64,000 nt of DNA from Gammaproteobacteria bacterium. Its GTDB lineage: Bacteria; Pseudomonadota; Gammaproteobacteria; GCA-002705445; GCA-002716945. The position numbers and the translations under genes were made by a program. The notes beneath the pieces are model-generated. The model did not search any database. It worked only from the letters and a program-made list of their open reading frames with translations, and was not told the DNA's origin. Below, piece after piece: positions 3,719 to 56,757 of the stretch. Numbering within the stretch: the first letter of the stretch is position 1; each line of letters begins with the position of its first letter. Where the stretch lies: the NCBI GenBank assembly GCA_002698665.1, contig NZZP01000012.1, forward strand, positions 689-64,688, read 5' to 3'.

Positions 3719-3728
3719 ACAGCTACCC

Positions 3729-4156: not shown

Positions 4157-4157
<1 letters not shown>
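3729..4157 (-). CDS. atpC: ATP synthase F1 epsilon subunit
   Basis: 142 aa, last gene of the atp operon. Its N-terminal beta-sandwich sequence is similar to E. coli AtpC. Confidence 0.9.
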
Positions 4158-5545
<1,388 letters not shown>

Positions 5546-5551
5546 CTAATT

Positions 5552-6415: not shown

Positions 6416-7956
6416 TAAAATACACCTTCATCTTTAAAACCGTCTAGCACAGATTTCATCTTTGCCGCTACTTTTTCATCATAGTCTAAACTTTCATTTA
6501 TTTCGTCAATAACGTCTTTATGTTTTGAGTTTGCAAACTCGTGTAAAGATTTTTCGAATGCGATAATTTTTTCAATATCAACATCGTCTAAATAGCCTTC
6601 GTTTGCAGCAAATAATGACATAGCCATATCTGCAACACTTAATGGGCTATATTGTGATTGTTTCATTAACTCAGTAACTCTTTTTCCTCGCTCAAGTTGT
6701 TTTCTTGTAGCTTCATCTAAGTCAGATGCAAACTGCGAAAATGCAGCCAATTCACGATATTGTGCAAGCGCTAATCTCACACCGCCGCCGAGTTTTTTGA
6801 TAATTTTAGTCTGTGCTGCTCCGCCTACTCTTGATACAGATAGTCCTGCGTTTATAGCAGGTCTGATTCCAGCATTAAATAAATCTGTTTCTAAGAAGAT
6901 TTGTCCATCTGTTATTGAAATTACATTCGTAGGCACAAATGCAGAAACATCACCCGCTTGGGTTTCTATAATCGGCAAAGCTGTGAGTGACCCTGTTTGA
7001 TTCTTAATTTTTCCATCTGTTATATTCTGTACTGCTTTCTCATTAATTCTAGCGGATCTCTCCAATAACCTAGAATGTAAATAGAAAACATCCCCAGGAT
7101 ACGCCTCTCTTCCAGGTGGTCTTTTTAACAACAGTGAAACTTGTCTGTATGCCCATGCTTGTTTAGTAAGATCGTCATAGACAATTAATGCATCTTCGCC
7201 ATTATCTCTAAAGTATTCGCCCATTGCACATCCAGAGTATGGTGCTATATATTGCATAGCTGCAGACTCAGCTGCTGAAGCTGCCACAATAATAGTATGT
7301 TTAAGAGCATCATGCTCCTCAAGCTTTCTAACAACTGCGGCTATTGAAGATGCTTTTTGGCCAATAGCAACATAAATACACTTTACGCCAGTGTCTTTTT
7401 GATTAATTATTGCATCAATAGCTACTGCTGTTTTCCCAGTTTGCCTGTCACCAATAATAAGTTCTCTTTGCCCCCTACCAATTGGTACCATGGAGTCGAT
7501 GGATTTTAACCCGGTTTGTACAGGTTGATCAACAGATTTACGTTCAATTACTCCAGGAGCAATCTTTTCAATTGGCGAACTCATTGTGGAAGATATCGGG
7601 CCTGCGTTATCAATTGGTTCACCAAGTGAATTTACTACCCTACCCAGCAAACCATCACCAACTGGAACTTCTAAGATTCTACCGGTGCATTTAACAGTGT
7701 CTCCCTCAGAAATAGACTTATAGTCGCCAAGTATTACTGCTCCAACGGAATCTCGTTCGAGATTAAGTGCAAGCCCAAAAATATTATTTGGGAATTCTAA
7801 CATTTCGCCTTGAAGTGCTTCAGTTATTCCATAGATTCTAGCGATGCCATCTGTCAATGAAATGACCGTTCCTTCATTATGAGACTTAGAGTCTAAGTTG
7901 ACCTCGCTTATTTTATCTTTAATTATTTCACTGATTTCTGTTGGATTTATTGTCAT
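6415..7956 (-). CDS. atpA: ATP synthase F1 alpha subunit
   Basis: 513 aa with Walker A GDRQTGKT. Confidence 0.96.
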
Positions 7957-18261: not shown

Positions 18262-18273
18262 GGTGTTAGGGTT

Positions 18274-18408
18274 TTAGGGGCACAGAACAGCTCTGCCTTT
18301 GGCGCGACGAGCGCTCAGAACCGCACGGCCTGCTACTGTGCTCATTCTAGATCTAAAACCGTGTTTTCTTTTACGTTTTAGGTTGCTTGGCTGGAATGTT
18401 CTTTTCAT
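18274..18408 (-). CDS. rpmH: 50S ribosomal protein L34
   Basis: Hand translation of the minus strand gives [44 protein letters not shown] (44 aa), a canonical L34 sequence. It is too short for the ORF track. Confidence 0.95.
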
Positions 18409-18509
18409 AATATTGTTGTCCGACTAGTATACTGCTAATTATATATTTCTTTGTCAATATATAATTTTATTTTTTTTTGTGAGATAGTAGATTCTCAACC
18501 ACAATTATT
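18409..18509. promoter_or_regulatory. divergent rpmH / dnaA promoter region
   Basis: 100-bp AT-rich spacer between divergent rpmH and dnaA. It contains TATAAT at 18460-18465 and a T9 run, with only weak DnaA-box-like sequence (TCAACCACA). Promoter elements are not mapped precisely. Confidence 0.3.
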
Positions 18510-28619: not shown

Positions 28620-29999
28620 ATGAAAAATACTACTTGGTCAGGCAGATTTAATAAACAAATGGATACAGAGGTTCTTGAGTTTAGCCAAAGCCTCAGTGTG
28701 GACATTGTTTTATATGAGACTGATATTGCTGTTACGATTGCCCATATTGAAATGTTGTTTAAATGTGGACATATTAAGAAAAATGAATGCGTAAAAATAA
28801 TTTCAGGATTAAAGAAAGTTTTAAAGCAGGCTGAGACAGGCAGGCTCAAGTGGAATATAGCTTTTGAAGATGTTCATATGAATATCGAAAACGCACTCGT
28901 CAAGATAATAGGTGATTTAGGTAAGAAAATACATCTCGGTAGATCGAGAAATGATCTTGTTGCAACTGATTTAAGAATATATTTAAGAGAGTTTGTTGAT
29001 ATTTACCTGTCGAAGCTAAGGGAGATTCAGGTGGTTTTAGCACATATGTCTAAAGAACACTCAAAGTCACTATTTCCTGGATATACACACCTTCAGGTAG
29101 CACAACCAGTAACCTTTGGTCATCATCTACTAGCGTGGTGTGAAATGCTTTATAGGGATGAGCTTAGATTGTTAAGTTTTAGGAAGTTGCTTAATATCAT
29201 GCCGCTGGGCTCGGCAGCATTATCTGGCACTTCTTTAAAGATTGATAGAGAATTTGTTGCAAAAAAACTTGGGTTTGACAGTGTCACAAATAATTCCATG
29301 GATGCAGTTAGCGATAGGGACTTTGTTTGTGACTTTGCGTATGCAAATTCTATGATAATGATGCACCTATCAAGAATTAGCGAGGAGCTAGTATTATGGA
29401 TGAGTCCTCAGATAAACCTAGTTTCATTAGATGAAAGTTTTTGTACTGGGTCATCCATAATGCCACAAAAGAAAAACCCTGATGTGCCTGAATTGATTCG
29501 TGGGAAAACTGGCTCAGTCTATGGAGCATTGATTGGCATGCTCACACTCATGAAGGGTTTGCCTCTGACATATAATAGGGATATGCAAGAAGATAAGAGT
29601 ATGATTTTTGAATCTGTTGATACTACATTAAGTTGTCTTGCCTTGATGCCTAGATTAATATCCACGCTTAAGCTTAATAGTAAAAATGCTGAATTAGTCG
29701 CAAGCAGTTCATTTTCTAATGCGACAGATTTAGCAGAATATCTCTCTAAGAAAGGCATGGCATTCAGAGAAGCCCATCACATCGTAGGCAAGATAGTAAA
29801 ATTATGCGAAAAAAAATCAGTAGATATATTAGAATTATCACTAGCAGACCTTCAAAAATATTCAAGCATGATAGATGCAGATATCTTTGATATTATCAGG
29901 CCAGAAATGTGCATCGCATCAAGAGAAGGTGATGGTGGAACTTCTCCAAAGTCTGTAGTAAAAAAAGCAAATGCTATACTTAGAAGGCTTAGAAAATGA
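28620..29999 (+). CDS. argH: argininosuccinate lyase
   Basis: Start trimmed to MKNTTWSGRF, matching the ArgH N-terminus M..WGGRF. Fumarate-lyase signature GSS.MPQKKNPD is present. The track ORF begins 60 nt upstream. Confidence 0.93.
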   Translation: MKNTTWSGRFNKQMDTEVLEFSQSLSVDIVLYETDIAVTIAHIEMLFKCGHIKKNECVKIISGLKKVLKQAETGRLKWNIAFEDVHMNIENALVKIIGDLGKKIHLGRSRNDLVATDLRIYLREFVDIYLSKLREIQVVLAHMSKEHSKSLFPGYTHLQVAQPVTFGHHLLAWCEMLYRDELRLLSFRKLLNIMPLGSAALSGTSLKIDREFVAKKLGFDSVTNNSMDAVSDRDFVCDFAYANSMIMMHLSRISEELVLWMSPQINLVSLDESFCTGSSIMPQKKNPDVPELIRGKTGSVYGALIGMLTLMKGLPLTYNRDMQEDKSMIFESVDTTLSCLALMPRLISTLKLNSKNAELVASSSFSNATDLAEYLSKKGMAFREAHHIVGKIVKLCEKKSVDILELSLADLQKYSSMIDADIFDIIRPEMCIASREGDGGTSPKSVVKKANAILRRLRK

Positions 30000-30364
30000 A
30001 ACATGCAATAGAAATGAGAACGATAGTTATCTTAATCTCTTTGTTCTATGCATCGTTGTTGCCTGCAGACACTCCATCTGTGGTCGACTATCAAAAGAGA
30101 TCAGACGAAAACAAATTTGACTCATATATTTATGGCCTTTCTAGCGGTATGGACTGGCTCAACGAACAAATTTACACTAGTCACTCCATTGAGGTATATT
30201 GCAAACCTCGAGACTTAGATCTTTCAGCAAAAGATCTAAAAAGACTCATAGACAGCGAACTAATAGACAACAAATCTTTCTACGATAAATACAATTATGC
30301 TCCTTTATTGGGTCTTGCACTCAGAAATGCTTACTTATCAAACTTTCCATGTGCCGCAAATTAG
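29996..30364 (+). CDS. hypothetical small secreted/periplasmic protein
   Basis: 122-aa ORF whose ATG overlaps the argH stop (ATGA). N-terminal signal-peptide-like segment (MRTIVILISLFYASLLPA); two Cys (YCKP and C-terminal FPCAAN). No family recognised. Confidence 0.5.
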   Translation: MKHAIEMRTIVILISLFYASLLPADTPSVVDYQKRSDENKFDSYIYGLSSGMDWLNEQIYTSHSIEVYCKPRDLDLSAKDLKRLIDSELIDNKSFYDKYNYAPLLGLALRNAYLSNFPCAAN

Positions 30365-30423: not shown

Positions 30424-30780
30424 ATGGCAGAACACCCAAAACCACAAGGCGATGATATCATATTGCCAGATGGAACAGTAGTTGGCACTTGGAATGGAGA
30501 AGATGTTAAAGATCTTCAGGTAGAGGTGCAAAGAATAATTAAGGAGCAAAAAGCTAGTGGAGCTGACCGCAACAATTTGTTAATCAGGTTTGGAATTCCA
30601 CACTTTGATCAAACACCTGACCATTTAAAACCATTCATAGCATATGCGCTATGGGGAGTTGATAAAAAAGGTATGTGTCTAACTCATAGACGAGCTGACC
30701 ATTTTGAATCTGTTGAGAAAATCAACGAGAAATATGGTAGTGAAACAGCAATTGCTGCTGCTCAAAGACATAGGGAATAA
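30424..30780 (+). CDS. hypothetical protein
   Basis: 118-aa ORF preceded by a strong Shine-Dalgarno AAAGGAGAG 5-6 nt upstream of ATG. Its G+C (~40%) is higher than surroundings and it is followed by a hairpin terminator. No family recognised. Confidence 0.55.
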   Translation: MAEHPKPQGDDIILPDGTVVGTWNGEDVKDLQVEVQRIIKEQKASGADRNNLLIRFGIPHFDQTPDHLKPFIAYALWGVDKKGMCLTHRRADHFESVEKINEKYGSETAIAAAQRHRE

Positions 30781-35492: not shown

Positions 35493-37568
35493 ATGTCTCT
35501 TCCCGTTAAACTAGATGATAATTACTTAGAAAGTTTACCAGGACTAGGTCCAGCCTTTAAAAAAAAATTATTCAGCATTGGAATTAAGAGAATCAGTGAT
35601 TTGATACTTTTTCTGCCTGCATTTTTAATTGATAAAACTAAATTAACTGACTTAAATCAAACAATAAATGGTGACAAGTGTCTATTTATTGGTGTGATAA
35701 AAAAAATTGTTCAAACTAAATCTTCAAGACGTAACCTCATTCTTACTGTTCATGTTGGAGATACATCCGTACAAATTAGATTTCTCCATAAAATTGTAAT
35801 TTACTCACATTTAAAAATTGATATGAATGTTAGAGTGACTGGTATAGCTAGACTCAAAGGCAAGGTTATTGAATTTATACACCCTGAAATAGAAGTACTC
35901 AGTGGAAAAAATAAAATGGAGAGTGTTGTTCCATACTATAAAACAAAGAGAATTATTTCTCAAAATAAAATAAGGAAGTTCATTAAATTTGCTTTTGATT
36001 ATATTAATATAAAGAAGAATGTAGATGTTTTCTCAAACAAGGTCCTTAATGATTTAAACCTACCTCATTATTTAGATGCTCTAAAGTATTGCCACTTCCC
36101 GTCATCTGATGACTACGACAAATCAAATAATCTATTTATCCAGGCTAAAAGAAGATTTATTATAGAAGAAATAATTACTCACAAATTAATATTATATGAT
36201 GCCAAAAAATCTATGGAGATGTTGAATGCATTTCCTTTTGAGATTAATTGTCCATCTATTGATAAGCTTATACATGATTTACCTTTCGAATTAACTCCAT
36301 CACAAGATATTGCCATAAGTGATTTAAAGCAAAGCCTTATAAAATCTTTTCCCACTAAAAGATTAATTCAAGGTGATGTTGGCTCTGGTAAGACAATTAT
36401 TGCAATCCTTGCTTGTTATATGGCAAAGATTTCTGGTTTACAAGCAGCAGTTCTTGTACCAACTGAAATACTTGCAGATCAACATTATATTTCTTTTTGT
36501 AATATACTTAAAGGACTTGAATTAAATATTGTTTGTTTAAAAGGTAACTTATCTAACAAAACTAAAACTAGCCTATTAAACTCTTTGTCTGACGGTTCAG
36601 TTGATATTGTTATAGGCACTCATGCATTAATACATGGCCAAACTAAATTCAAAAAATTAGGAATTATTATAGTTGATGAACAACACAAATTTGGTATAAA
36701 CCAAAGAAATACTTTAAATCAAAAACATCAGGCAGGAAATTATCATCCACATGAAGTATATTTGTCTGCGACACCCATACCCAGGTCTCTATCTCTAGTG
36801 TTGTATGAGGGACTAGATTATTCATTAATTAAAGATTTACCTAAAGATAGAAGGCAAATTATAACAAGAATATTTGACAGTACTAATAGAAAGACTTTAT
36901 ATAATGATATAACTAAGCTTTTACAGAAAGGTGATCAAATATATTGGGTATGCCCATGTATTGATGTCAGTGAAAATCTAGAGTTAGAATATGTCCGAGG
37001 TGTGCATGAATCTTTAAAAAAAATATTCAATAACACTGCTATTAAGATGTTACATGGAAGACTAGAATCATCAGACAATAAAGCAACAATGAAATCATTT
37101 ATGTCTGGAGAAACTAGCATTCTAGTTGCAACATCAATGATAGAAGTTGGTGTTGATATTCCTAATGCAACTTGCATGGTTATAGAAAATCCTGAAAGAT
37201 TTGGTCTCTCGCAACTTCATCAACTTAGAGGTCGTGTCGGAAGGAGTAACAAACAGAGTTATTGTTTTCTTGCTAAGACCAAAACACTGAGCGAGAATGC
37301 ATTCAATAGGATAAAGTTACTCACACACTATACTAATGGTTTTGATATTGCAGAACAAGATCTTAAATTAAGAGGAAGTGGCGATTATCTAGGGGAAAAG
37401 CAGTCTGGTGTAGCGCAAAATTTTAAATTAGCTACATCAGACGATGCTATTAGAAACTATGATATCATATGTAAATCACTGTCTACCATTAATCTAATAG
37501 ATAATAATGGCAAGAGGAAACTTAAAAGAAGGTGGGGATTAAATATAATAGAAGATATAAAACTTTAA
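35493..37568 (+). CDS. recG: ATP-dependent DNA helicase RecG
   Basis: 691 aa with N-terminal wedge region, helicase motifs GDVGSGKT, DEQH and QLRGRVGR. Confidence 0.94.
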   Translation: MSLPVKLDDNYLESLPGLGPAFKKKLFSIGIKRISDLILFLPAFLIDKTKLTDLNQTINGDKCLFIGVIKKIVQTKSSRRNLILTVHVGDTSVQIRFLHKIVIYSHLKIDMNVRVTGIARLKGKVIEFIHPEIEVLSGKNKMESVVPYYKTKRIISQNKIRKFIKFAFDYINIKKNVDVFSNKVLNDLNLPHYLDALKYCHFPSSDDYDKSNNLFIQAKRRFIIEEIITHKLILYDAKKSMEMLNAFPFEINCPSIDKLIHDLPFELTPSQDIAISDLKQSLIKSFPTKRLIQGDVGSGKTIIAILACYMAKISGLQAAVLVPTEILADQHYISFCNILKGLELNIVCLKGNLSNKTKTSLLNSLSDGSVDIVIGTHALIHGQTKFKKLGIIIVDEQHKFGINQRNTLNQKHQAGNYHPHEVYLSATPIPRSLSLVLYEGLDYSLIKDLPKDRRQIITRIFDSTNRKTLYNDITKLLQKGDQIYWVCPCIDVSENLELEYVRGVHESLKKIFNNTAIKMLHGRLESSDNKATMKSFMSGETSILVATSMIEVGVDIPNATCMVIENPERFGLSQLHQLRGRVGRSNKQSYCFLAKTKTLSENAFNRIKLLTHYTNGFDIAEQDLKLRGSGDYLGEKQSGVAQNFKLATSDDAIRNYDIICKSLSTINLIDNNGKRKLKRRWGLNIIEDIKL

Positions 37569-38098
37569 TGGCTTATAAATACCTTAAAAACTGGAAAAAT
37601 GAGAGAGCACTTAAAGATTGTAGTTTGCCTACCAAAATAAGTGTAATCGACACAAACTCACTCACAAAAAAGTTATGTTCGGTACATAATAATAATTTCC
37701 AAGTTAGAGTCATATCTCAATCAATTTCTCTATCAAATAGAATAGTAAAGAACATGTTTTTTAAAACTCCAGCACAAAGGGGTATTTACCGCAAAGTTAT
37801 TTTGTCAACACGATGTTATCCAAACATAGAAGCTTATACATTTATACCCTCAAAATACATAACTGGCAGAGATAGGTTTATAAAAATACTTGGGAGAAGA
37901 TCTTTGGGGACACATATACTCAGTTCCGCAAGATATAGAAAAATCAACACAAAGTATAATATAAAAGGAAATAAGATTCATCGTGTAAGCGAGTATAAAA
38001 GTAGAATAAAATCTATATTTGTGAATGAAGTGTTTCCAAAATCATTTAAGCTAAATAGCTTATCGTTTTTACATGCAAGAGGCGAGTTCGCCAAATGA
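37568..38098 (+). CDS. ubiC: chorismate pyruvate-lyase
   Basis: Start set at the ATG overlapping the recG stop (TAATG). Collinear with E. coli UbiC blocks: SLTKKL ~ SMTKRF, YRKVILS ~ WLREILL, LGRRSLG ~ LGKTPLG and NEVFP ~ TELFLP. Confidence 0.55.
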   Translation: MAYKYLKNWKNERALKDCSLPTKISVIDTNSLTKKLCSVHNNNFQVRVISQSISLSNRIVKNMFFKTPAQRGIYRKVILSTRCYPNIEAYTFIPSKYITGRDRFIKILGRRSLGTHILSSARYRKINTKYNIKGNKIHRVSEYKSRIKSIFVNEVFPKSFKLNSLSFLHARGEFAK

Positions 38099-45493: not shown

Positions 45494-46240
45494 TTATATT
45501 ATTAAACTTATACCAACTGTAATTGTGATTAATTGATATATTCTTCTTATGGATTTATTGCTTTTTTTTAATGATATTTTTGCTCCTATGTATCCACCCA
45601 TGAGAGAACCAAAAATTAGTGAAGGTAAGAGAATTAAATATAAATCTGTATTAAAACTTAAGATTATTGCCCCCATAGCATTATAGAAAAATCCTACAAT
45701 TATTAATGTGTATGCAATTGCATTTTTATAATCTAATCCAAAGAATGTAATTAATGACATGGTGAATATCAAACCTGTACCCGCAGATAACGAACCATTT
45801 AGTAATCCAGTTATAAATGCAAAAAAATACCCTAAAAAAATTTGATTAGAGTTACTAGTTTTTTTTATATTCTCTCCATGATTTTTTTGGTACAACGAAT
45901 ATATTGCTATACATACAATAAATACACCAAGACTAGTTCGCGCAATATTTTCATCTGTTATTACTATTGCTTCCGCACCTAATATTACACCTGGTATCCC
46001 AAACAAGAGTAGCTTGCATATTAATTTGTAATCAAAAGCAATAACTGTTTTAAATTTAGATGTCGCTCCTACACCCAATGCAACCGTAGCTATCTTATGG
46101 GTTGCCAAGGCATTAATAAATGCAATATCATATAGAAGTAATATTGCTGGTAGTTGTATCACTCCTGCACCACCACCAGAAAATGCTGAAAAAATATTTG
46201 ATATTAACGATACAAAAAATAATATTAAATGATCGAGCAC
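45494..46240 (-). CDS. TSUP (TauE/SafE) family anion permease
   Basis: 248 aa, two repeated 4-TM halves with G-rich motifs (GGGAG...). Confidence 0.8.
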   Translation of the reverse strand: MLDHLILFFVSLISNIFSAFSGGGAGVIQLPAILLLYDIAFINALATHKIATVALGVGATSKFKTVIAFDYKLICKLLLFGIPGVILGAEAIVITDENIARTSLGVFIVCIAIYSLYQKNHGENIKKTSNSNQIFLGYFFAFITGLLNGSLSAGTGLIFTMSLITFFGLDYKNAIAYTLIIVGFFYNAMGAIILSFNTDLYLILLPSLIFGSLMGGYIGAKISLKKSNKSIRRIYQLITITVGISLII

Positions 46241-47137
46241 TTATAGCCTACGAATCATAGTTCCGATACCATCATCTGTAAATAACTCTAATAGGACTGC
46301 ATGATTCACCGTGCCATCGATGATTTGAACATGTTCTACTCCAAAAGAAACCGCTTCTAGGGCTGAATTAACTTTTGGAAGCATTCCCTTGGAGATGATT
46401 TTATTATCAATTAATTTTCTTACATTCGCTGCATTAATTGACTGGATATGTTCCCCATCTTTATCCAAGATACCGGAAGTATTAGTGAGAATTAGATATT
46501 TTGTTGCTTGTAATATGTGTGCAATTTTACCAGCAACTAAATCTGCGTTGATATTATATGTTGTACCATCCTCACCAATTCCTATAGGTGCAATAACTGG
46601 AATAAATGGTGATCCATCTAATAAAGTCACTACCTCTGGATCAATACTTTGAACAGTCCCCGTATTTTTAAAATCTATATCTTTAAACTCACCTTCACCA
46701 ATCATTTTTTTTGCTCTTATAAGACCACCATCTTTTCCTGATAAGCCAACAGCCTTACCGCCATGTGATGTAATTGCATTTACGATTTCTTTATTCACAA
46801 GACCTCCAAGTACCATCTCTATTATATGTACTGATTCGGGACTAGTTATCCTCATGCCATTTGCAAATTCTGATTCTATACCAAGTTTCTTAAGATATGA
46901 TGTTATTTGTGGACCACCACCATGAATAATAACTGGGTGCAATCCTACCTGTTTAAGAAGAACAACGTCACGAGCAAAGTTATTTTTAAGAACTTCATCT
47001 GTCATTGCATTGCCACCAAACTTAATGACAATTACTTTATTAGATAATTTTTGAATATAAGGTAGCGCCTCTATTAAGATTTTAGCGGTGCTTGGAGTTA
47101 TACTACTATTTTTTCTATACTTTACTTGCTCGTTCAT
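46241..47137 (-). CDS. argB: acetylglutamate kinase
   Basis: 298 aa amino-acid kinase fold (VIKFGGNAM, HGGGPQI). Confidence 0.92.
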   Translation of the reverse strand: MNEQVKYRKNSSITPSTAKILIEALPYIQKLSNKVIVIKFGGNAMTDEVLKNNFARDVVLLKQVGLHPVIIHGGGPQITSYLKKLGIESEFANGMRITSPESVHIIEMVLGGLVNKEIVNAITSHGGKAVGLSGKDGGLIRAKKMIGEGEFKDIDFKNTGTVQSIDPEVVTLLDGSPFIPVIAPIGIGEDGTTYNINADLVAGKIAHILQATKYLILTNTSGILDKDGEHIQSINAANVRKLIDNKIISKGMLPKVNSALEAVSFGVEHVQIIDGTVNHAVLLELFTDDGIGTMIRRL

Positions 47138-48573
47138 TCTATTATATTAATTTTAATTTTATCATCTACTTTATTTATCTGTTCTTGAACTAAGTTTTTA
47201 ATGTTTCTTAGAGATTTTTCATCATCGGCTTCAAACCGTAATACTAAATTAGCACTTGTGTTAGAGCATCTTATTAAAGCCCAGCCATTTTCAAATATTA
47301 TTTTCATCCCATCAATATTAATAATACTAGCATTCTCGAACTTTGCTAGTTTTACAAATAATTCCATAAAAGTAAAATGATTATTGCCTTTAAATTCTAT
47401 ATTAATTTCGGGTGTAATTACTGTATTAGGAAGTTTGTCTAGAGGTTCGTCAATATTCTGATATTTACCCAGTATTTCTAGAAGCCGTAATGATGAATAA
47501 ATACCATCATCAAACCCATACCACTTATCTGCAAAAAATATATGACCGCTAAGCTCGCCTCCTAATGCTGCCTGATTATCTATTATTGCTTTCTTTATAA
47601 ATGAGTGTCCTGTTCTACATAAAATTGGCACACCTCCATTTTTTATAATTTCTTTTTCAAGGTGCTTAGAACATTTGATGTCATAGACTATTTTTGCTCC
47701 CTGATTCTTATTGAGTATACTTTTGCTAAAAATCATCATAAGTTGATCTGGCCATAGCACTTTTCCATTTTTTCTCACTGCAGCAATCCTATCTCCATCG
47801 CCATCATATGCAAATCCGATCATAGAATCACTATCTGATAGAATCTTTTTTAATTCAGCTAAGTTCTTTTCATCAGATGGATTTGGTGAATGATTAGGAA
47901 AATTTCCATCTACCTTTTCGTTAATTATTTTTGTTTTTATTTTTAACGCATCAAATATTTTTCGAACAACATTTCCAGTTATACCATTTCCACAATCTAT
48001 ACTAACTGTATGATTAAAATCAATATCTAAAGTATCAATTAATTTTGTTATGTAACTTTCTAAGATAGTAGAATCATTTTTTATACTACCTTTTTGTCCA
48101 TATAAAAACTGTCCTTTGTCAGCTATCTCGAAAATCTCTTTTATATATTCACCATAGAGTGTTATGTTATTCACAACCATTTTAATTCCATTATAATTTT
48201 TTGGATTGTGGCTGCCAGTAATCATTAACCCATTCTTAATATTGAGGTTTTTTAATGAATAATTAAGTAATGGCGTTGGTAGTAGCCCTATGTCTACAAC
48301 ATCAATACCAGTTGATATGAGGCCTTCTATTAAGCTCTTTTTAAGAGTTGGACTTGATAACCTGCCGTCTGCACATAAGCATACCTCAGTTCCAGCATTT
48401 TGATTATTAATGTATGTGCCAATTGCTTTACCTACTAAGTTATAAACATCCTCATTGATTTGTTCTGGATATACACCTCTTATATCATATGCTCTAAATA
48501 TATCTTTTGTAATAATCAATTTATTTTTTTCCTGAAGATCCAAAACCCGCATCACCTCTACCTGTCTTTTCAA
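47134..48573 (-). CDS. algC: phosphomannomutase/phosphoglucomutase (AlgC/ManB type)
   Basis: 479 aa with FRAYDIRG, active-site TGSHNP and GE.SGH. Overlaps the dut 3' end by ~53 nt, so the true start may be downstream. Confidence 0.88.
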
Positions 48574-48973
48574 AACTTTCCACTTGCTTTAACTCTGGTT
48601 GTTGTACACTAATAAATACTAATTGAGCAATTCTATCATATGGTTCAATGGTGAAATGCGCATCACTTCTATTCCAACATGAGACCATCAGTGGTCCCTG
48701 ATAGTCTGAGTCAATGAGACCAACAAGATTTCCTAGCACAATACCGTGTTTATGACCTAGTCCTGATCTTGGTAATATTAAGCCAGCATACTTACTGTCT
48801 TCAATAAAAATAGATATACCTGTCGATATTAATTTCGTTTCATTTGGTTTAACTTCTATGGTTCTATTAATTGAGGCTCTAAGGTCTAAACCGGCAGAAC
48901 CTTTTGTTAAATAATCTGGAAGCTTTGTTAACTTATTATCCAGAATTTTAATCTTCACATCATTTAACATCAA
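48521..48973 (-). CDS. dut: dUTP diphosphatase
   Basis: 150 aa near identical in motifs to E. coli Dut ([35 protein letters not shown]-terminal GFGSSG). Confidence 0.95.
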
Positions 48974-50189
48974 GACTTACCAGACTAACTTTCTTAGAAT
49001 ACTCTGATGATATAATTTTGAATAGCTCAACTGCTATATTAATTTTTTTATCTTCATCAATTTCTTTAGTTCTATCTTTAGTAAATACTGTAACTTTATT
49101 AAAGTCTGACTCAAACCCAATTTTCAACTCATGGTTTGCTATATTGCCTATAATCATATCTAAATTTTTATCTTCAAGCTTATGTTTTGCATTAGCATCC
49201 AATTTATCTGTTTCTGCAGCAAATCCTATTGTAAAAAGCTTTTTATATTTTTCTGATACAGTTTTTAAAATATCAGCTCCACGTGTAAATTCTATATTCA
49301 AATTCCCGTCACTCTGTTTATGTTTAACTTGAGAATAATTTATAGGTCTATAATCTGCAATAGCAGCTGCTGATATAAAAATATCGAAATCACGAACTTT
49401 TGAGATTACTACATTGAGCATATCCGAAGATGTATCAACATATGTAGTTTTAATATTTTTGATTGGTTGAATCTTCACAGGACCTGAAACAATCTCTACA
49501 TATGCTCCCATTGATTTTGCTGCTAAAGCCATAGCATATCCCATTTTACCAGAACTATAATTACTAATATATCTGACTGGATCAATTGGTTCACGTGTGG
49601 GGCCAGCTGTAATTAAAATTTTGCTTCCTGCAATACTAGAATTATTATCTTGCCTGCTTATAACTTCAATAATTTCATTTGAACTTGACATTCTTCCATA
49701 TCCAATATCTCCGCATGCATGACTTCCATAGCTAGGCCCTATCATTGTTATATCTGCAGATTTGAGTTTTTCCTTACTATTTTGTGTAACTTTATTGTTC
49801 CACATATCTGGATTCATCGCAGGAACAACAAAGATTGATTTTGTAAATGCCAAGCATATTGTGGATAGTAAATCATCTCCATGTCCATTTGCTAATTTAT
49901 TCATAAAGTTTGCAGTGCATGGAGCTATAAGGATAATATCAGCCCACTTTGCTAAGCTTAGATGCTTAAAATTTTCTTTTGTATGGGACTGTGATTCCTC
50001 ACATATTACCTCTTCACCGGAAAGAGCCTCAAGAGTCGTTTCTGTTATAAATAACTCAGAACTTTTTGTCATAACCGTCTTAATATTACAACCTTGTTTT
50101 TTTAGATTACTCACAAGATCTGCAGATTTATACGCTGCGATACTACCTGTAATCCCTAGAAGTATATTTTTGTTTGAAAGTATATTCAT
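48960..50189 (-). CDS. coaBC: bifunctional phosphopantothenoylcysteine decarboxylase / phosphopantothenate-cysteine ligase
   Basis: 409-aa flavoprotein N-domain plus CoaB C-domain; conserved dfp-dut adjacency. Confidence 0.92.
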
Positions 50190-51355
50190 ATAGCCGCGCC
50201 AATTATTTTTTTAAGTGATTGTACTAGTGATTGTATTTGTTTTTTTGTGTGACCGCTAGTTAAATTAACTCTAATGAGGTCATTATTAATTGGCACTGTA
50301 GGATACCTAATTGCTTGAATTAATATATTTTCCTTTTTAATCTTTTTGCATATATCAACAACAGTTATTGGGTCACCAATTGTTATCGTTTGTATTGCTG
50401 TGTTTGATTCATTTATTTTTATGTTATTAAATTTTACTAATTTTTTAAAATATTTAATATTTTCATAAAGTTTATTTACCAGGCTCGGTTTGCTCTTTAT
50501 TATATTAATACTCTCTATTGTTGTTGCTACTAAGGCTGTCGGTAATGCGGTCGAATATATATATGGTCTAGATTTCTGTACCATAAGATTTATTAACTCA
50601 TTTGATCCTGCAATAAAAGCACCAAACGTTCCGATTGCTTTTCCAAAAGTTCCTATATATGCATCTATTTTAGCCCCCTTAAATTTTTTGATGTTTCGTG
50701 AACAAGGGAAGTCATTATTACAATTTTGTGCGACACCAAAGCCATGTGCATCATCTACAAATAACAGAGCATTGTTGTCTTCAGAAATTTTAGATAATCT
50801 CTTAATATCTATAATCTCTCCCGTCATACTGAAGACAGTGTCTGTATAGATTATTTTTGTAGATTTTTTATATTTTTTTAATTTTTTCTCTAGGTCATGA
50901 TAGTCAAGGTGATTATACCTAATCAATTTTACTGATGATAGTCTCGAACTCTCTATAATAGAGCTATGATTAAGTTTATCTTGGAATACAATTATGTCTT
51001 TGTCACCAATAGCATTTATTAGCCCTACATTTGCAAGATAACCAGAATTTACAACTAGTACAGATTCGAACCGAAGAAGTTTAGCAATCTTTTTTTCCAA
51101 TTGCATATGTTTTTTATTATACCCACTTATCAACGGTGACGAGCTTGACCCGATACCAAATTCACTAGTATTATCGCTAAGGGATTTTTTTAATTTTTTA
51201 TTATTAGCTAAATTTAAATAGTTATTACTTGCAAAATTTATATATTTTATTTTATTGATGGTAACTATTGTATCTTGCGCAGAGTCAAGTAATAATCTTT
51301 GTCTATAAAGACCCTTTTCTTTCAGACTAGAGAGTTTTTTTTGAAAATCTATCAC
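50186..51355 (-). CDS. bioF: 8-amino-7-oxononanoate synthase
   Basis: 389-aa class-II aminotransferase (PLP Lys in GTFGKA) directly downstream of bioB. Confidence 0.8.
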   Translation of the reverse strand: MIDFQKKLSSLKEKGLYRQRLLLDSAQDTIVTINKIKYINFASNNYLNLANNKKLKKSLSDNTSEFGIGSSSSPLISGYNKKHMQLEKKIAKLLRFESVLVVNSGYLANVGLINAIGDKDIIVFQDKLNHSSIIESSRLSSVKLIRYNHLDYHDLEKKLKKYKKSTKIIYTDTVFSMTGEIIDIKRLSKISEDNNALLFVDDAHGFGVAQNCNNDFPCSRNIKKFKGAKIDAYIGTFGKAIGTFGAFIAGSNELINLMVQKSRPYIYSTALPTALVATTIESINIIKSKPSLVNKLYENIKYFKKLVKFNNIKINESNTAIQTITIGDPITVVDICKKIKKENILIQAIRYPTVPINNDLIRVNLTSGHTKKQIQSLVQSLKKIIGAAI

Positions 51356-51377
51356 TAATGTTCAACTACGTTTTTTC

Positions 51378-52418
51378 TTATAGGTTGCTGGTATTAATTG
51401 GAATATCAGAGAGCTTTGTCAGATTATCCGAGGTAGTTTCTAATGCGCATTGATCTTGTTCAATATGCCCATCTGTTTTAATTTTTAAATTATTTAGTAA
51501 TTTTCTATCATGTTTAATAGTAGAATTCTTTGTTGTAAGTAGTTCTTCACCATAGAAAATTGAATTTGCTCCAGCGAAAAAACAAAGTGCTTGCATTTGG
51601 TCATTCATAGTGTCCCTTCCAGCGGATAGTCTAACATATGACTTGGGCATTGCTATTCTTGCTAATGCTATTACTCTAATAAAGTCAAATTCATCTACAT
51701 TTAGATTTCCAGAATATGGCGTTCCTTCTACTTTTACAAGTTTATTAATTGGCACTGATTCGGGCTGTTCATCTAAATTTGCTAACACTTGAATCAGCTT
51801 AATCCTATCTATACCATCTTCACCTAATCCAATAATACCGCCACAACAAACTTTTATACCAGCATCTCTTACATGCTGAATTGTATCTAATCTATCTTGA
51901 TATGTTCTGGTTGTTACGACTTTTTTATAATATTCTTCCGAGGTATCCAAATTATGATTATAGTAATCAAGCCCAACAGATTTGAGCTCGTCAGCTTGAT
52001 TCTTTGTCAACATACCAAGAGTAACACAAGTTTCAAGTCCTAATCCTTTTACCCCTTTAACCATTTCTTTTACTTTAGCCAGATTACTGTTAGTGAGATT
52101 TCGCCAAGCCGCTCCCATGCAAAAACGTGTTGCACCAGTATTTTTAGCATCTTTGGCTTGTTTTATTATTTCACTGAGGGGAAGAGTTTTCTCAAGATTA
52201 ATATCAGTATCATACCGTATGCTTTGAGAGCAATACTTACAATCTTCTGGACAACCTCCAGTTTTAATAGACATTAGTGTTGATATTTGAATCTTATTAG
52301 GATCATGATTCTCCCTATGAATTTCATGCGCCTTCCACAAGAGATCATTGAAAGGCATATTATACATATCTTCTAGCTCTTTGGTTGTCCAGTTATTTTT
52401 TATAGTTTGATTGCTCAT
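51378..52418 (-). CDS. bioB: biotin synthase
   Basis: 346-aa radical-SAM enzyme ([10 protein letters not shown]). Confidence 0.93.
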
Positions 52419-52424
52419 AATAAT

Positions 52425-53273
52425 TTATAGATAGTTAAATAGTAGACCAAAACTAATTATTAATCCAAATATATTATTATTTTCAAATGCTGATATACAT
52501 TGATATGGTTTTCTTGATTCAGCTAAAAGGCTCTGATATATGACAGTAAGCAAAGACAAAGTTACGAATAAGTAATATACGAAATCATAAGAATTAATCA
52601 GTCCTAGTAAGATAAATCCAATCACAACGGTATAATGCATGTACTTTGAATATTTGATGTCATTATCTCCAAAAAAAAGAGCCGATGAACCTACACCAAT
52701 CTTTTTATCATCTTTTTTATCTGCCATAGCATAATACGTGTCATATACAATTGCCCATATAATCGTCGATAAATATAGTATTATACAGTTAACATCAATA
52801 TATCCTTTTTCTAAGATGAAAATCATAGGAATGCTCGAGCCAAATGCCATGCCTAAAACAAATTGCGGTAACTTGAAATATCTTTTTGTTAATGGATATG
52901 CAACTAATAACACTAATGAGAAAATTGCAAATATAAGAATTTTAAACTCCAGCATAATCAGTAAGATGAAACACACTGAAAGCAACAATGCAAAAATAAT
53001 TAACGCCTCATAATTCGATACTTTTTTGCTAGCCAGTACTCTCTCTTTTGTTCTCTCAACTTTTCTATCAAAATCTTGATCAAAGTAATCATTAATTACA
53101 CAACCAGCAGATCTTGTAGCTAAAATACCAATTGAAAAAATAATTAAGTAAAATATATTAGGACTACCTTCTGATGATACTAAAAATGCCCATAGTGCAG
53201 GCCACATTAATAGTAGGTAACCTATTGGTTTATCAACCCTCATGAGTTGTAAATAGAGTCTTAGTTTAGACAT
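52425..53273 (-). CDS. ubiA: 4-hydroxybenzoate polyprenyltransferase
   Basis: 282-aa UbiA prenyltransferase (NDYFDQDFD Asp-rich motif; polytopic). Confidence 0.9.
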   Translation of the reverse strand: MSKLRLYLQLMRVDKPIGYLLLMWPALWAFLVSSEGSPNIFYLIIFSIGILATRSAGCVINDYFDQDFDRKVERTKERVLASKKVSNYEALIIFALLLSVCFILLIMLEFKILIFAIFSLVLLVAYPLTKRYFKLPQFVLGMAFGSSIPMIFILEKGYIDVNCIILYLSTIIWAIVYDTYYAMADKKDDKKIGVGSSALFFGDNDIKYSKYMHYTVVIGFILLGLINSYDFVYYLFVTLSLLTVIYQSLLAESRKPYQCISAFENNNIFGLIISFGLLFNYL

Positions 53274-53278
53274 GAATA

Positions 53279-53827
53279 TTAAATCTTGCCATCTAATCCC
53301 ATCTGAAAATACTTATGTACAATTGACTCTTGGTTTTCTAATAACCAGTCAATATCAGGTTTATTATTCATGGCTTTGTTAATTGCCTGAGCTGTTGCTT
53401 TTCTGTGAATGTCAAATAATATCCTGTGATTCAGATTTTCATCTTTAGCGACTGACGGATTTAACCACACAGAAACAATTATACCTAATTCATTTGCTTT
53501 ATCTTTAGGTATATCTCCGCTCCTTACTGAATCAAGAACGCCATTAGCTATTGCTGCTTGAACTGTTCCCATCAGTATGTTGGTGTATCTATTATCTTTG
53601 ACAGTAACCTTACTAACCATTAATGTTGCCGGTTTAACCATAATGTCTGTATTCATAATAGCTAGGACTTTTGAATGTCCTTTACTTTGGTCGCCAATCA
53701 AATTAGCAAAAGCTGTCCCAAATGGCCCGTCTAGATGTCCTATAACAATTTCTGGCTCTGCAGCTGTTCCCGCAGGGCCACCTGCAACAAGCGATTCGCC
53801 TACTTTCATAACAAAATTATCGTTCAT
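53279..53827 (-). CDS. fae: formaldehyde-activating enzyme (Fae) family protein
   Basis: 182 aa collinear with Methylorubrum Fae: VGE.LVG.G, IG...GP...AF.N, LA.....KP.TLM..KVT, G..Q.A.A. It lies 5 nt upstream of ubiA on the same strand. Confidence 0.6.
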   Translation of the reverse strand: MNDNFVMKVGESLVAGGPAGTAAEPEIVIGHLDGPFGTAFANLIGDQSKGHSKVLAIMNTDIMVKPATLMVSKVTVKDNRYTNILMGTVQAAIANGVLDSVRSGDIPKDKANELGIIVSVWLNPSVAKDENLNHRILFDIHRKATAQAINKAMNNKPDIDWLLENQESIVHKYFQMGLDGKI

Positions 53828-53896
53828 AAATTATTCCTTCAAAATTGATTTTTATGACTATAATATAGGTTAAGCTTGATAAAAGGAACATATAAC

Positions 53897-54418
53897 ATGA
53901 TAAGAAGTTTCAAGAATTTTACACCATCTATACATAAGACAGCATATATAGATGAACAGGCTACTGTGATTGGTGATGTTACTATTGGTAAGGACAGTGC
54001 TTTATGGCCACAAGCTGTTGCGAGAGGGGATATAAATAAAATTACTGTTGGAGATAGAACTAATATACAAGATGGTGCAATTTTACATGTTACTCATGTC
54101 AGTGAATATTGTCCTTCGGGTTACCCATTATCTATAGGCAATGATGTAACTATAGGCCACTCTGCTGTTATACATGCGTGTACGATAGGCAATCAAGTGT
54201 TAATTGGGATGGGGAGTATTATCTTAGACGGAGCAATTGTTCCATCTAATACTATGATAGCTGCGGGCGCATTAATTGGTCCTGGCAAAACTCTGGATAG
54301 TGGTTTTTTGTATGTAGGAAGTCCAGCTAAAAAATTGCGCGAACTTTCTGCTAAAGAGTTGAAATTTTTATTATACTCTGCGGAAGGATACGTAGCTTTA
54401 AAAAATCAGTACTTGTAA
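53897..54418 (+). CDS. yrdA: gamma-class carbonic anhydrase family protein (YrdA-like, hexapeptide repeat)
   Basis: Left-handed beta-helix repeats and a YrdA-like N-terminus (IR.F....P.I....YID..A.VIGDV). The track start at 53876 is a TTG, so it was trimmed to the ATG at 53897. Adjacent to aroE as in E. coli. Confidence 0.8.
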   Translation: MIRSFKNFTPSIHKTAYIDEQATVIGDVTIGKDSALWPQAVARGDINKITVGDRTNIQDGAILHVTHVSEYCPSGYPLSIGNDVTIGHSAVIHACTIGNQVLIGMGSIILDGAIVPSNTMIAAGALIGPGKTLDSGFLYVGSPAKKLRELSAKELKFLLYSAEGYVALKNQYL

Positions 54419-56283: not shown

Positions 56284-56757
56284 ATGTCCATTTGGCAAGA
56301 AAATTTTACACTTTCACATGTTATTTCGTTGAGAAATAACAATCTTAATAAGCATTTGTGTATCGAATTTATTGAACTTGGCGATGATTATATTATTGCC
56401 AGGATGCCCGTAGAAGACTTTACTAGGCAATCGCGTGGTATCTTGCATGGAGGAGCATCATGTGTTTTGGCAGAAGCTTTAGGAAGTATTGCTTCTAATA
56501 TGTGTATAGACATGAGGAAACAGAAAGCGGTGGGCCTAGAAATCAATGCTAATCATGTTAGACCAGTTTCTAAAGGTTATGTGACTGGTACAACAACAGC
56601 AGCCAGTCTTGGAAAATCTGTTCATGTTTGGAATATTGACATTCGCAATGATGCTGGAAAATTAAATTGTGTCTCTAGGCTAACTACGGCGATAGTGAAT
56701 CTAAAAGGAGATGAGATTGAACATAATAATAAGCTTTTAGATAATTTATTAAAATAG
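56284..56757 (+). CDS. PaaI/YbdB-type hotdog-fold thioesterase
   Basis: 157 aa with an HGG motif (ILHGGASCVLAE). Confidence 0.75.
   Translation: MSIWQENFTLSHVISLRNNNLNKHLCIEFIELGDDYIIARMPVEDFTRQSRGILHGGASCVLAEALGSIASNMCIDMRKQKAVGLEINANHVRPVSKGYVTGTTTAASLGKSVHVWNIDIRNDAGKLNCVSRLTTAIVNLKGDEIEHNNKLLDNLLK

What the first reader, a model, noticed from the sequence alone, without database searches (positions are those of the whole stretch)
52425..53827. Fae-family (formaldehyde-activating enzyme) gene fused into the ubiA transcription unit, while ubiC is detached and coupled to recG
ORF 53279-53827 aligns collinearly with bona fide Fae (the H4MPT-dependent formaldehyde-condensing enzyme of methylotrophs). 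Yet it sits 5 nt upstream of ubiA, exactly where ubiC normally sits in the ubiCA operon. It is surrounded by housekeeping genes (bioBF, gamma-CA, aroE, hemB). No H4MPT-pathway or methylotrophy genes (mtdB, mch, fhc, mxa/xox) occur anywhere in the 64 kb. The recognisable UbiC homologue is instead at 37568-38098, translationally coupled to recG (TAATG). Either the organism has a dispersed H4MPT formaldehyde-detoxification pathway, or this is one of the uncharacterised Fae-like paralogues with a different substrate, possibly ubiquinone or aromatic metabolism given the operon context.
Basis: partly seen in the sequence, partly recalled or inferred. Interest (0 to 1): 0.5.

Follow-up and report, generated by a model that had tools for sequence, protein, structure and literature searches.

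The report
Fae3-type formaldehyde-enzyme paralogue beside ubiA
The gene is real and belongs to the formaldehyde-activating-enzyme family, but it is the known, uncharacterised "Fae3" paralogue of methylotrophs, and it sits next to ubiA because this roughly 1.1-Mb marine genome is tightly packed, not because of any visible link to ubiquinone synthesis.

Summary
ORF 53279-53827(-) matches Pfam Fae (199.6 bits) and lies 5 nt upstream of a bona fide ubiA. UbiC sits elsewhere, overlapping the recG stop codon (TAATG). No H4MPT gene occurs in the 64 kb.

The protein is not canonical Fae. It is about 33% identical to M. extorquens Fae, carries two insertions, and has Glu where the proposed catalytic His22 lies. 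It is 75-89% identical to a 182-aa protein found in Methylococcales, Methylophilaceae and marine TMED127 methylotrophs. By seven-gene synteny that protein is fae3 of Methylotuvimicrobium alcaliphilum. Published work shows fae3 does not complement an M. extorquens fae mutant and is dispensable in the lab.

The fae3-ubiA adjacency occurs only in the window's own AT-rich marine gammaproteobacterial clade. There the whole hemB-to-coaBC block is syntenic. In the window, 34 of 50 same-strand gene pairs are 10 nt or less apart.

The lineage is probably GTDB order GCA-002705445. Its genomes are about 1.1 Mb, and the literature reports a complete H4MPT pathway.

Verdict: an ordinary member of a known but functionally unresolved paralogue class. 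The ubiquinone link is unsupported.

The parts
53279..53827 (-). fae3-type gene (182 aa), a Fae-family paralogue and first gene of a nine-gene same-strand run
   Evidence: It matches Pfam Fae at 199.6 bits and TIGR03126 at 131.6 bits, against 248-261 bits for canonical Fae. It is 75-89% identical to the best 80 of 558 relatives, taken from 80 species genomes. It is syntenic with M. alcaliphilum fae3 via M. buryatense locus L079. The motif GGPxGTAAEPE is invariant in 77 orthologues.
53274..53278 (-). 5-nt spacer between the fae3 stop and the ubiA start
   Evidence: Read directly from the sequence. The equivalent gap in relatives runs from -14 to +7 nt.
52425..53273 (-). ubiA, 4-hydroxybenzoate polyprenyltransferase (282 aa)
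   Evidence: It matches TIGR01474 at 299.6 bits against a 275.45 cutoff, and Pfam UbiA at 182.3 bits. The conserved N-terminus supports the first ATG as the start.
45494..52418 (-). Rest of the same-strand run downstream of ubiA: bioB, bioF, coaBC, dut, phosphoglucomutase-family gene, argB, tauE-family gene
   Evidence: Gaps within the run are 6, 22, -4, -14, -53, -4 and 0 nt. The functions are unrelated housekeeping.
53828..53875 (.). 48-nt divergent intergenic region between fae3 and the gamma-carbonic-anhydrase-like gene; presumed promoter region of the run (inferred)
   Evidence: Defined by the ORF map. The consensus promoter scan was no better than shuffled sequence: 66 sites found against 66.5 expected.
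53876..54418 (+). Hexapeptide-repeat, gamma-carbonic-anhydrase-like gene, the divergent neighbour
   Evidence: It matches Pfam Hexapep, and NF050158 at 158 bits, which is below that model's cutoff. It holds this position in all nine loci of the window clade.
37568..38098 (+). ubiC (chorismate lyase), detached from ubiA; its start overlaps the recG stop (TAATG)
   Evidence: It matches Pfam Chor_lyase at 34.2 bits against 23.6. The overlap is read from the sequence.
35493..37568 (+). recG, upstream of and overlapping ubiC
Evidence: ORF map and the junction sequence. No family search was run on it.

Best explanation
The ORF encodes an orthologue of the Fae3 class of Fae-like proteins. This is a sharply conserved 182-aa paralogue of the H4MPT-dependent formaldehyde-activating enzyme, found in methanotrophs, Methylophilaceae and several uncultured marine methylotroph lineages. 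It is not canonical Fae.

The host is a highly streamlined, AT-rich marine gammaproteobacterium. Close relatives have genomes of about 1.08 Mb. It is probably GTDB order GCA-002705445, a putative dissimilatory methylotroph whose H4MPT genes lie elsewhere on the chromosome.

fae3 heads a nine-gene run of unrelated housekeeping genes (fae3-ubiA-bioB-bioF-coaBC-dut-pgm-argB-tauE) and is probably co-transcribed with ubiA. This is a consequence of genome compaction and block synteny inherited within that one lineage, not of a shared pathway.

Mechanism (inferred, not shown): the protein keeps the Fae fold and most family-invariant residues, including the residue that aligns with Gln88. It most likely still binds a reduced pterin C1 carrier and formaldehyde or a methylene unit. 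An invariant Glu24 would stand in for the His22 general acid. It would then serve an auxiliary, non-redundant role in C1 transfer rather than carrying the main formaldehyde flux. I put roughly 0.45 on an auxiliary pterin-dependent enzyme, 0.2 on a ligand-sensing or regulatory role, and the rest on other or unknown roles.
For: Family and subclass:
- Pfam and NCBIfam hits.
- In an alignment with 33 family representatives and 1Y5Y, the query falls in a separate group. That group has a 2-aa and a 5-aa insertion, and A-E-P-E where canonical proteins have A-H-I-D.
- Glu24, Pro25 and Glu26 are invariant in 77 orthologues, and 81 of 182 columns are invariant across Alpha-, Beta- and Gammaproteobacteria.
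- 21 columns are shared between the canonical and query-type groups, including Gln88.
- TIGR03126 scores are 114-131 bits for this class and 248-261 bits for canonical Fae.

Identity with fae3:
- M. buryatense 5G locus L079 has the order pyrG, tilS, unknown ORF, FAE, 2xCheY regulator, cytochrome c, sulfite-oxidase-type enzyme, YeeE-like.
- The same order surrounds MEALZ_RS07105 (fae3) in the supplement of PMC11748545.

Published function data:
- fae3 does not complement M. extorquens delta-fae1.
- The delta-fae3 mutant grows normally.
- Fae-like groups 2-4 are of unknown function.

Link to C1 metabolism:
- Carriers include Methylotuvimicrobium, Methylobacillus, Methylovorus, Methylotenera, Methylomonas, Methylobacter and Methyloprofundus.
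- TMED127 (MED657 = L018) also carries it, and that group has an H4MPT island.
- In nine Methylococcales loci the gene lies 1-3 genes from fhcC and fhcD.

Adjacency is incidental:
- ubiA follows fae3 only in L013, L015, L016, L029, L046, L050 and L051, all within one syntenic block.
- Elsewhere the neighbours differ.
- The spacing statistics show near-zero gaps are the norm.

Strong constraint: against L029, L050 and L051, Fae3 stays 80-81% identical. UbiA is 56-58%, BioF 41-44% and AroE 42-47%.

Lineage:
- GC is 33.8%.
- AtpD relatives at 94-95% identity sit on contigs of 1.00-1.09 Mb.
- GCA-002705445 is described as marine, below 40% GC and about 1.1 Mb, with complete H4MPT gene sets.
Against: - No H4MPT gene could be shown in this genome. 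The order assignment rests on genome size, GC, habitat and the absence of a closer name, not on a phylogeny.
- The gene name fae3 is used inconsistently in the literature. A close Fae1 homologue was called fae2 in 2018 and fae1-2 in 2024. I could not map the protein to Chistoserdova's Fae2 or Fae3 of Methylophilaceae.
- The pterin-binding inference rests on conserved columns only. The structure prediction failed (pLDDT 31.7), and the role of His22 is recalled from the abstract of Acharya et al. 2005, which I could not read.
- The fae3-ubiA junction is tight or overlapping across a clade whose UbiA proteins are only 56% identical. A functional coupling therefore cannot be strictly excluded.
Confidence: 0.72

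Rival explanations
1. It is the lineage's working formaldehyde-activating enzyme. In a genome of about 1.08 Mb, the Fae3-type protein would be the only Fae homologue. It would catalyse formaldehyde + H4MPT -> methylene-H4MPT for a dissimilatory H4MPT pathway encoded elsewhere, with Glu24 replacing His22 as the acid catalyst.
For: - TIGR03126 is passed, at 131.6 bits against 118.05.
- GCA-002705445 MAGs are reported to have 'complete sets' of H4MPT-pathway genes. An annotation pipeline would count this gene as fae.
- One terrestrial Methylophilaceae ecotype has the full H4MPT pathway but no true Fae, only a Fae-like gene.
- In Methylococcales the orthologue sits beside fhcCDAB.
- Conservation is extreme, and the gene is retained in minimal genomes.
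Against: - M. alcaliphilum fae3 did not relieve methanol sensitivity or restore growth of M. extorquens delta-fae1, whereas fae1 from the same organism did.
- TMED127, with 1.5-Mb genomes, keeps both a 169-aa canonical fae at roughly ten to fifty times higher transcript levels and the 182-aa type.
- Identity to canonical Fae is only about 33%, lower than the 50-51% that archaeal Fae shares with it.
Confidence: 0.15
2. It condenses formaldehyde with tetrahydrofolate, or runs the reverse reaction. That would feed or drain the H4F-linked C1 pool, independent of H4MPT.
For: - This role has been proposed in the literature for Fae homologues.
- A PurN-like, folate-type formyltransferase gene lies between fae3 and fhcC in marine Methylococcales loci.
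- The active-site substitutions (His22 to Glu, Phe119 to Trp) are compatible with a changed cofactor.
Against: - No experiment supports it for Fae3. The 2024 model-based argument concerned fae1-2, not fae3.
- No OM43 or 'Ca. Methylopumilus' record appeared among the 80 best species genomes or among the 120 best hits to a Methylobacillus query. Those groups lack H4MPT and rely on the H4F route. This is weak negative evidence that Fae3 tracks H4MPT rather than H4F.
Confidence: 0.1
3. One reading: it acts in ubiquinone or aromatic metabolism, functionally coupled to UbiA in a fae3-ubiA operon that replaces ubiCA.
For: - The gap is 5 nt here and runs from -14 to +7 nt in seven related loci whose UbiA proteins have diverged to 56% identity.
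- ubiC is detached.
Against: - The adjacency is absent from all other lineages carrying the orthologue. That covers 60 or more loci with varied neighbours.
- Within the window clade the whole hemB-aroE / gCA / fae3-ubiA-bioB-bioF-coaBC block is conserved, so nothing singles out the fae3-ubiA pair.
- Near-zero spacing is the genome-wide norm.
- UbiC is present, so nothing is missing from the pathway.
- No step of ubiquinone synthesis involves formaldehyde or a pterin (established pathway knowledge).
Confidence: 0.03

Closest known systems
Fae3 of Methylotuvimicrobium alcaliphilum 20ZR (MEALZ_RS07105 / MEALZ_1456; Fae-like protein of unknown function, PMC11748545)
   Same: - Both are 182 aa.
- The query is 79% identical to the syntenic M. 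buryatense 5G orthologue.
- Both have the same two insertions relative to canonical Fae.
- Both carry the invariant GGPxGTAAEPE motif.
   Different: - The genomic context differs. In Methylotuvimicrobium the gene lies between an unknown radical-SAM-like ORF and a 2xCheY response regulator / sulfite-oxidase cluster. Here it heads a housekeeping run starting with ubiA.
- The host here is an uncultured marine gammaproteobacterium of about 1.1 Mb rather than a 4.7-Mb methanotroph.
Canonical formaldehyde-activating enzyme Fae (M. extorquens AM1, PDB 1Y5Y/1Y60; EC 4.2.1.147)
   Same: - Same Pfam family.
- Collinear over the whole domain.
- 21 family-invariant columns are shared, including the one aligned with Gln88.
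   Different: - Identity is about 33%.
- The query has +2 and +5 residue insertions.
- His22, Ile23 and Asp24 are replaced by Glu, Pro and Glu, and Phe119 by Trp.
- The TIGR03126 score is half the canonical value.
- The orthologue fails to complement delta-fae1.
Archaeal Fae / Fae-Hps fusion (NF009833)
   Same: Both share the Fae domain.
   Different: - The query has no Hps domain.
- It scores 107.3 bits against a 274 cutoff.
- Archaeal Fae is 50-51% identical to M. extorquens Fae, which is closer to canonical Fae than this protein is.
ubiCA operon of Escherichia coli and many other Gammaproteobacteria
   Same: A gene sits immediately upstream of ubiA on the same strand with almost no spacer.
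   Different: The upstream gene is fae3, not ubiC. ubiC (Chor_lyase, 34.2 bits) lies 15 kb away, overlapping recG.

Membership tests
Fae family (Pfam PF08714) | Full-length match to the family profile above the gathering score | tested here: met
   It scores 199.6 bits against a cutoff of 27, covering profile positions 1-158 of 159.
Canonical H4MPT-dependent Fae (TIGR03126 equivalog; Group 1 of PMC11748545) | Profile score at the level of characterised Fae | tested here: inconclusive
   At 131.6 bits it passes the 118.05 cutoff, but canonical proteins score 248-261 bits. Fae3-type orthologues straddle the cutoff: 119.6, 130.2 and 114.5 bits.
Canonical H4MPT-dependent Fae | His22, the proposed acid catalyst (recalled from the abstract of Acharya et al. 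2005), within the A-H-I-D motif | tested here: not met
   It aligns to Glu24 in A-E-P-E. Glu is invariant in 77 orthologues.
Canonical H4MPT-dependent Fae | At least about 50% identity to M. extorquens Fae, as even archaeal Fae shows | tested here: not met
   Identity is about 33% over residues 7-173. All 92 tblastn hits of the M. extorquens protein in the fetched loci are 25-34% identical.
Canonical H4MPT-dependent Fae | Restores methanol growth and resistance to M. extorquens delta-fae1; catalyses formaldehyde + H4MPT condensation | not testable with these tools
   For the M. alcaliphilum orthologue (fae3), the published result is negative.
Canonical H4MPT-dependent Fae | H4MPT pathway and cofactor-biosynthesis genes present in the same genome | tested here: inconclusive
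   None occur in the 64-kb window or about 10 kb beyond its right edge. They are reported as complete for order GCA-002705445, to which the window probably but not provably belongs.
Fae3 class (sensu M. alcaliphilum MEALZ_RS07105) | Orthology to the named gene: high full-length identity plus conserved neighbourhood in a close relative of the type organism | tested here: met
   The query is 79% identical over residues 1-182 to M. buryatense 5G locus L079. The seven neighbours in L079 match the MEALZ_1453-1460 order.
Fae3 class | Class-specific sequence signature: 182 aa, +2 and +5 insertions, GGPxGTAAEPE | tested here: met
   Shown by the alignments.
Fae-Hps bifunctional enzyme (NF009833) | Fused 3-hexulose-6-phosphate synthase domain | tested here: not met
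   The protein is only 182 aa and scores 107.3 bits against a cutoff of 274. The match covers only profile positions 2-160 of 392.
ubiCA operon | Chorismate lyase gene directly upstream of ubiA | tested here: not met
   The upstream gene is in the Fae family. Chor_lyase is at 37568-38098.
UbiA 4-hydroxybenzoate polyprenyltransferase (TIGR01474) | Equivalog score above the cutoff | tested here: met
   It scores 299.6 bits against 275.45.

The most novel reading that the evidence does not exclude
In these marine genomes of about 1.08 Mb, the Fae3-type protein may be the only Fae homologue and so carry the whole formaldehyde-to-H4MPT flux, with Glu24 as the catalytic acid. That would make this lineage a natural experiment showing that 'Fae3' is a true, mechanistically variant formaldehyde-activating enzyme rather than a sensor. 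It would also explain why the protein is one of the most conserved in the genome.
Probability: 0.15. Interest if true: 0.55.

Novelty: new member of a known kind. Interest (0 to 1): 0.3.

Why it matters
As a genome feature it is ordinary. The identical protein is already deposited as 'formaldehyde-activating enzyme' (MAR77646.1), and the link to ubiA is a by-product of compaction.

Its modest value lies elsewhere. Fae3 has been an unexplained paralogue in methylotrophy for about two decades. This analysis adds three points:
- It is retained, under very strong constraint, in some of the smallest free-living marine genomes: 81 of 182 columns are invariant across three proteobacterial classes, and it stays 80% identical where neighbouring housekeeping proteins fall to 42-58%.
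- It consistently replaces the proposed catalytic His of Fae with Glu.
- The NCBIfam 'equivalog' model does not separate it from true Fae, so automatic calls of a 'complete H4MPT pathway' in marine MAGs may rest on the wrong paralogue.

Tried and rejected
- Promoter and terminator consensus scan of 44.8-56.4 kb: 66 promoter-like sites against 66.5 in shuffles, so uninformative in AT-rich DNA.
- AlphaFold2 with 29 close homologues: pLDDT 31.7, unusable, so no fold search was run. Only near-identical sequences were eligible for the alignment.
A five-sequence alignment (A2) worked.
- Tracing the window to a named MAG accession through DnaA and MnmG look-ups found only metagenome contigs.
- Extending the view past the window edges: the glmS product is not on record. 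The right side showed trkH, lipid A acyltransferase, his genes and tatABC, with no C1 genes.
- Matching contig lengths to a published circular-MAG table failed because no supplement is held.
- Reading the Fae structure paper failed because it is not held. A literature search for His22 returned only unrelated papers.
- Searches for Fae in SAR86, Thioglobus and SAR11 led nowhere. My early guesses of SAR86, SUP05 or OM43 as the host were dropped.
- A test for canonical fae near fae3 in the 100 fetched loci found none.
Full report
**Observation**

The ORF at 53279-53827 on the minus strand encodes 182 aa.
- It matches Pfam Fae (PF08714) end to end at 199.6 bits.
- It matches NCBIfam TIGR03126 at 131.6 bits, just above the 118.05 cutoff.
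- It aligns collinearly with M. extorquens Fae (PDB 1Y5Y), query residues 7-173 against chain residues 6-165, with two indels.

Five nucleotides downstream begins a 282-aa ORF that is a clear 4-hydroxybenzoate polyprenyltransferase (TIGR01474, 299.6 bits against 275.45).
- Public gene calls start ubiA 30 nt later, giving a 35-nt gap.
- The longer form is the better call. It is supported by the profile alignment and by a conserved N-terminal peptide in relatives. In those relatives the fae-ubiA gap ranges from a 14-nt overlap to +7 nt.

A chorismate lyase gene is present at 37568-38098 (Chor_lyase, 34.2 bits against 23.6). Its ATG overlaps the recG stop as TAATG.

Pfam assignments for the rest of the window show only housekeeping genes around the replication origin: dnaA-dnaN-recF-gyrB, the atp operon, hem, bio, ccm and others. 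No H4MPT or methylotrophy family appears.

**What the protein is**

A search of 1.84 billion cluster representatives found only 800 Fae-family representatives. I aligned the query with the full-length representatives and 1Y5Y, and two groups separated.

- Canonical proteins, including M. extorquens Fae and the 390-430-aa proteins whose length fits Fae-Hps fusions, share GNE--VAHIDLxIG and have no insertion.
- The query group has two extra residues before the motif, A-E-P-E in place of A-H-I-D, and five extra residues after a W-L-x-P motif.

His22 of the M. extorquens enzyme is the proposed acid catalyst. I recall this from the abstract of Acharya et al. 2005, which I could not read. It aligns with Glu24 of the query.

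A scan of one genome per GTDB species found 558 relatives. The best 80 are 75-89% identical over all 182 residues. They come from:
- Methylotuvimicrobium buryatense 5G
- Methylobacillus arboreus and M. gramineus
- Methylotenera, Methylomonas, Methylobacter, Methyloprofundus, Methylomarinum and Methylomagnum
- many uncultured marine lineages

Across 77 of these orthologues, 81 of 182 columns are invariant, including GGPxGTAAEPE. None of the fetched loci contains a canonical fae, and all are 25-34% identical to the M. extorquens protein. TIGR03126 gives canonical Fae 248-261 bits and this class 114-131 bits. The 'equivalog' cutoff therefore runs straight through the class and does not discriminate it.

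**Which named paralogue**

In M. buryatense 5G (L079) the gene is flanked by pyrG, tilS and an unknown radical-SAM-like ORF on one side. On the other side lie a response regulator with two receiver domains, a cytochrome c, a sulfite-oxidase-type molybdoenzyme and a YeeE-like protein.

The gene table in the supplement of PMC11748545 lists exactly this order around MEALZ_RS07105 of M. alcaliphilum 20ZR, which the authors call fae3. That paper reports three things:
- fae3 does not relieve methanol sensitivity or restore growth of M. extorquens delta-fae1, whereas fae1 from the same organism does.
- A delta-fae3 mutant has no growth defect.
- Fae-like groups 2-4 have no known function. Sensing, regulation or a tetrahydrofolate-linked role have been suggested.

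Naming in the field is inconsistent. I therefore use 'Fae3' strictly in the sense of MEALZ_RS07105.

In the marine alphaproteobacterial methylotroph group TMED127, one SAG carries two fae genes:
- a 510-bp canonical fae in the H4MPT island, transcribed at about 2,500-7,500 units
- a 549-bp fae (CDS.254, whose M. extorquens homologue is META1p3356), transcribed at about 2-690 units

L018 is the TMED127 MAG MED657. The two-paralogue arrangement thus persists even at 1.5 Mb.

**Is the ubiA adjacency meaningful?**

I called ORFs in the 80 loci and matched them to the window's proteins. ubiA follows fae3 only in L013, L015, L016, L029, L046, L050 and L051. Partial loci L014 and L026 share the same upstream genes.

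In all of these the whole block hemB-aroE / gamma-CA-like / fae3-ubiA-bioB-bioF-coaBC is conserved. The pair is therefore not singled out.

Elsewhere the neighbours are unrelated:
- fhcC-fhcD-fhcA-fhcB and a PurN-like gene in marine Methylococcales
- a deaminase and a Na/sulfate symporter in another AT-rich SAG clade
- pstS-like, MFS and GAPDH genes in TMED127
- a cNMP-binding/rhodanese protein, an RNase-RNM-like protein and YajQ in UBA4486-like genomes

Within the window, 34 of 50 same-strand neighbour pairs are 10 nt or less apart and 24 overlap. The coding density is about 95%. fae3 is simply the first of nine tightly packed, functionally unrelated genes.

Co-transcription with ubiA is likely but untested, and the consensus promoter scan was uninformative. 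UbiC is present, so Fae3 does not fill a gap in the ubiquinone pathway.

**Host and the H4MPT question**

- The window has 33.8% GC.
- Its proteins are deposited as 'Gammaproteobacteria bacterium' or 'Ectothiorhodospiraceae bacterium' MAG proteins from Tara and similar data.
- AtpD relatives at 94-95% identity lie on contigs of 996,428 to 1,085,117 nt. These are most simply read as complete genomes of about 1.08 Mb.

This fits GTDB order GCA-002705445:
- It is a marine, MAG-only lineage that shares a common origin with SAR86.
- Its GC is below 40% and many circular MAGs exist.

I could not fetch whole genomes, so two things remain inferences: the assignment to this order (my estimate about 0.75), and the presence of H4MPT genes and of a canonical fae in this particular organism. 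The carriers I could name are all known methylotroph or methanotroph genera, families or orders, and H4MPT is reported for terrestrial Methylophilaceae, TMED127 and GCA-002705445. OM43 and 'Ca. Methylopumilus' lack H4MPT. They did not appear among the best 80 species genomes or among the best 120 hits to a Methylobacillus query. This is weak evidence that Fae3 travels with H4MPT.

**Mechanism**

Shown:
- membership of the Fae family
- a distinct, extremely conserved subclass
- Glu in place of the proposed catalytic His
- retention of 21 columns conserved in both groups, including the one aligned with Gln88
- tight packing upstream of ubiA

Inferred:
- The protein keeps the Fae fold.
- It still binds a reduced pterin C1 carrier and formaldehyde or a methylene group.
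- It serves an auxiliary role in C1 transfer that canonical Fae does not cover.

Against the more divergent members of the clade, Fae3 stays 80-81% identical. UbiA falls to 56-58%, HemB to 58-60%, BioF to 41-44% and AroE to 42-47%. That argues for a constrained, probably oligomeric and ligand-binding protein, not a decaying duplicate.

Rivals, in order of my belief:
- It is the sole working Fae of the lineage (0.15).
- It is a tetrahydrofolate-dependent condensing or releasing enzyme (0.10).
- It has a role tied to UbiA (0.03).

A pure sensor role is included within the main explanation at about 0.2.

**Novelty and verdict**

The gene is a new member, from an uncultured marine lineage, of a known but uncharacterised paralogue class. 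The identical protein is already in public databases.

The proposed ubiquinone or aromatic connection is not supported.

The finding is of low to moderate interest. Three by-products are worth passing on:
- the annotation pitfall in TIGR03126
- the invariant His-to-Glu switch
- the retention of Fae3 in genomes of about 1.1 Mb

Noticed in passing
L079:9060-9941(-), L040:9054-9929(-) and 20 other Methylococcales loci: A conserved 282-297-aa ORF is transcribed divergently right upstream of fae3 in 22 Methylococcales loci. It scores 29.0 bits on Pfam Radical_SAM, just under the 29.5 cutoff, and has no NCBIfam hit. It is probably MEALZ_1458, annotated 'conserved protein of unknown function'. It is the most conserved neighbour of fae3 anywhere and has no homologue in the window.
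   Followed up: partly
L040:10001-15941 (also L025, L030, L034, L041, L082, L086, L087): In marine and freshwater Methylococcales, fae3 is followed by a PurN-like formyltransferase (140.6 bits, below the 150.1 cutoff). Then come fhcC, fhcD, fhcA and fhcB. This is a physical link between the Fae3 class and the H4MPT formyltransferase/hydrolase cluster.
   Followed up: partly
window 4157-5536(-) (atpD) and its database relatives: AtpD proteins 94-95% identical to the window's lie on contigs of 1,085,117, 1,080,043, 1,065,287, 1,023,141 and 996,428 nt. These are probably complete genomes of about 1.08 Mb, among the smallest for free-living Gammaproteobacteria.
   Followed up: partly
window 53279-53827(-); TIGR03126: The NCBIfam 'equivalog' model for Fae scores Fae3-type proteins at 114-131 bits, either side of its 118.05 cutoff. 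True Fae scores about 250 bits. Automated annotation therefore names some Fae3 proteins 'formaldehyde-activating enzyme', and 'complete H4MPT pathway' calls in MAGs may rest on this paralogue.
   Followed up: yes
window 52425-53273(-): Public gene calls start ubiA at an internal ATG (272 aa). The first ATG (282 aa) is supported by the profile alignment and by a conserved N-terminal peptide in seven related loci.
   Followed up: yes
window 18262-18509: A 248-nt non-coding gap lies between the rnpA/yidD-side genes and dnaA. It is one of the longest in a window with about 95% coding density, and is presumably the dnaA promoter or oriC region.
   Followed up: no
window 29996-30364(+) and 30424-30780(+): Two small ORFs (122 and 118 aa) downstream of argH have no Pfam match. 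They are called as genes in public contigs.
   Followed up: no
window 56284-56757(+): A 4HBT-superfamily thioesterase (53 bits) lies between hemB and hemF, 2.5 kb from ubiA. It is conserved at this position throughout the window clade. Its substrate is unknown.
   Followed up: no
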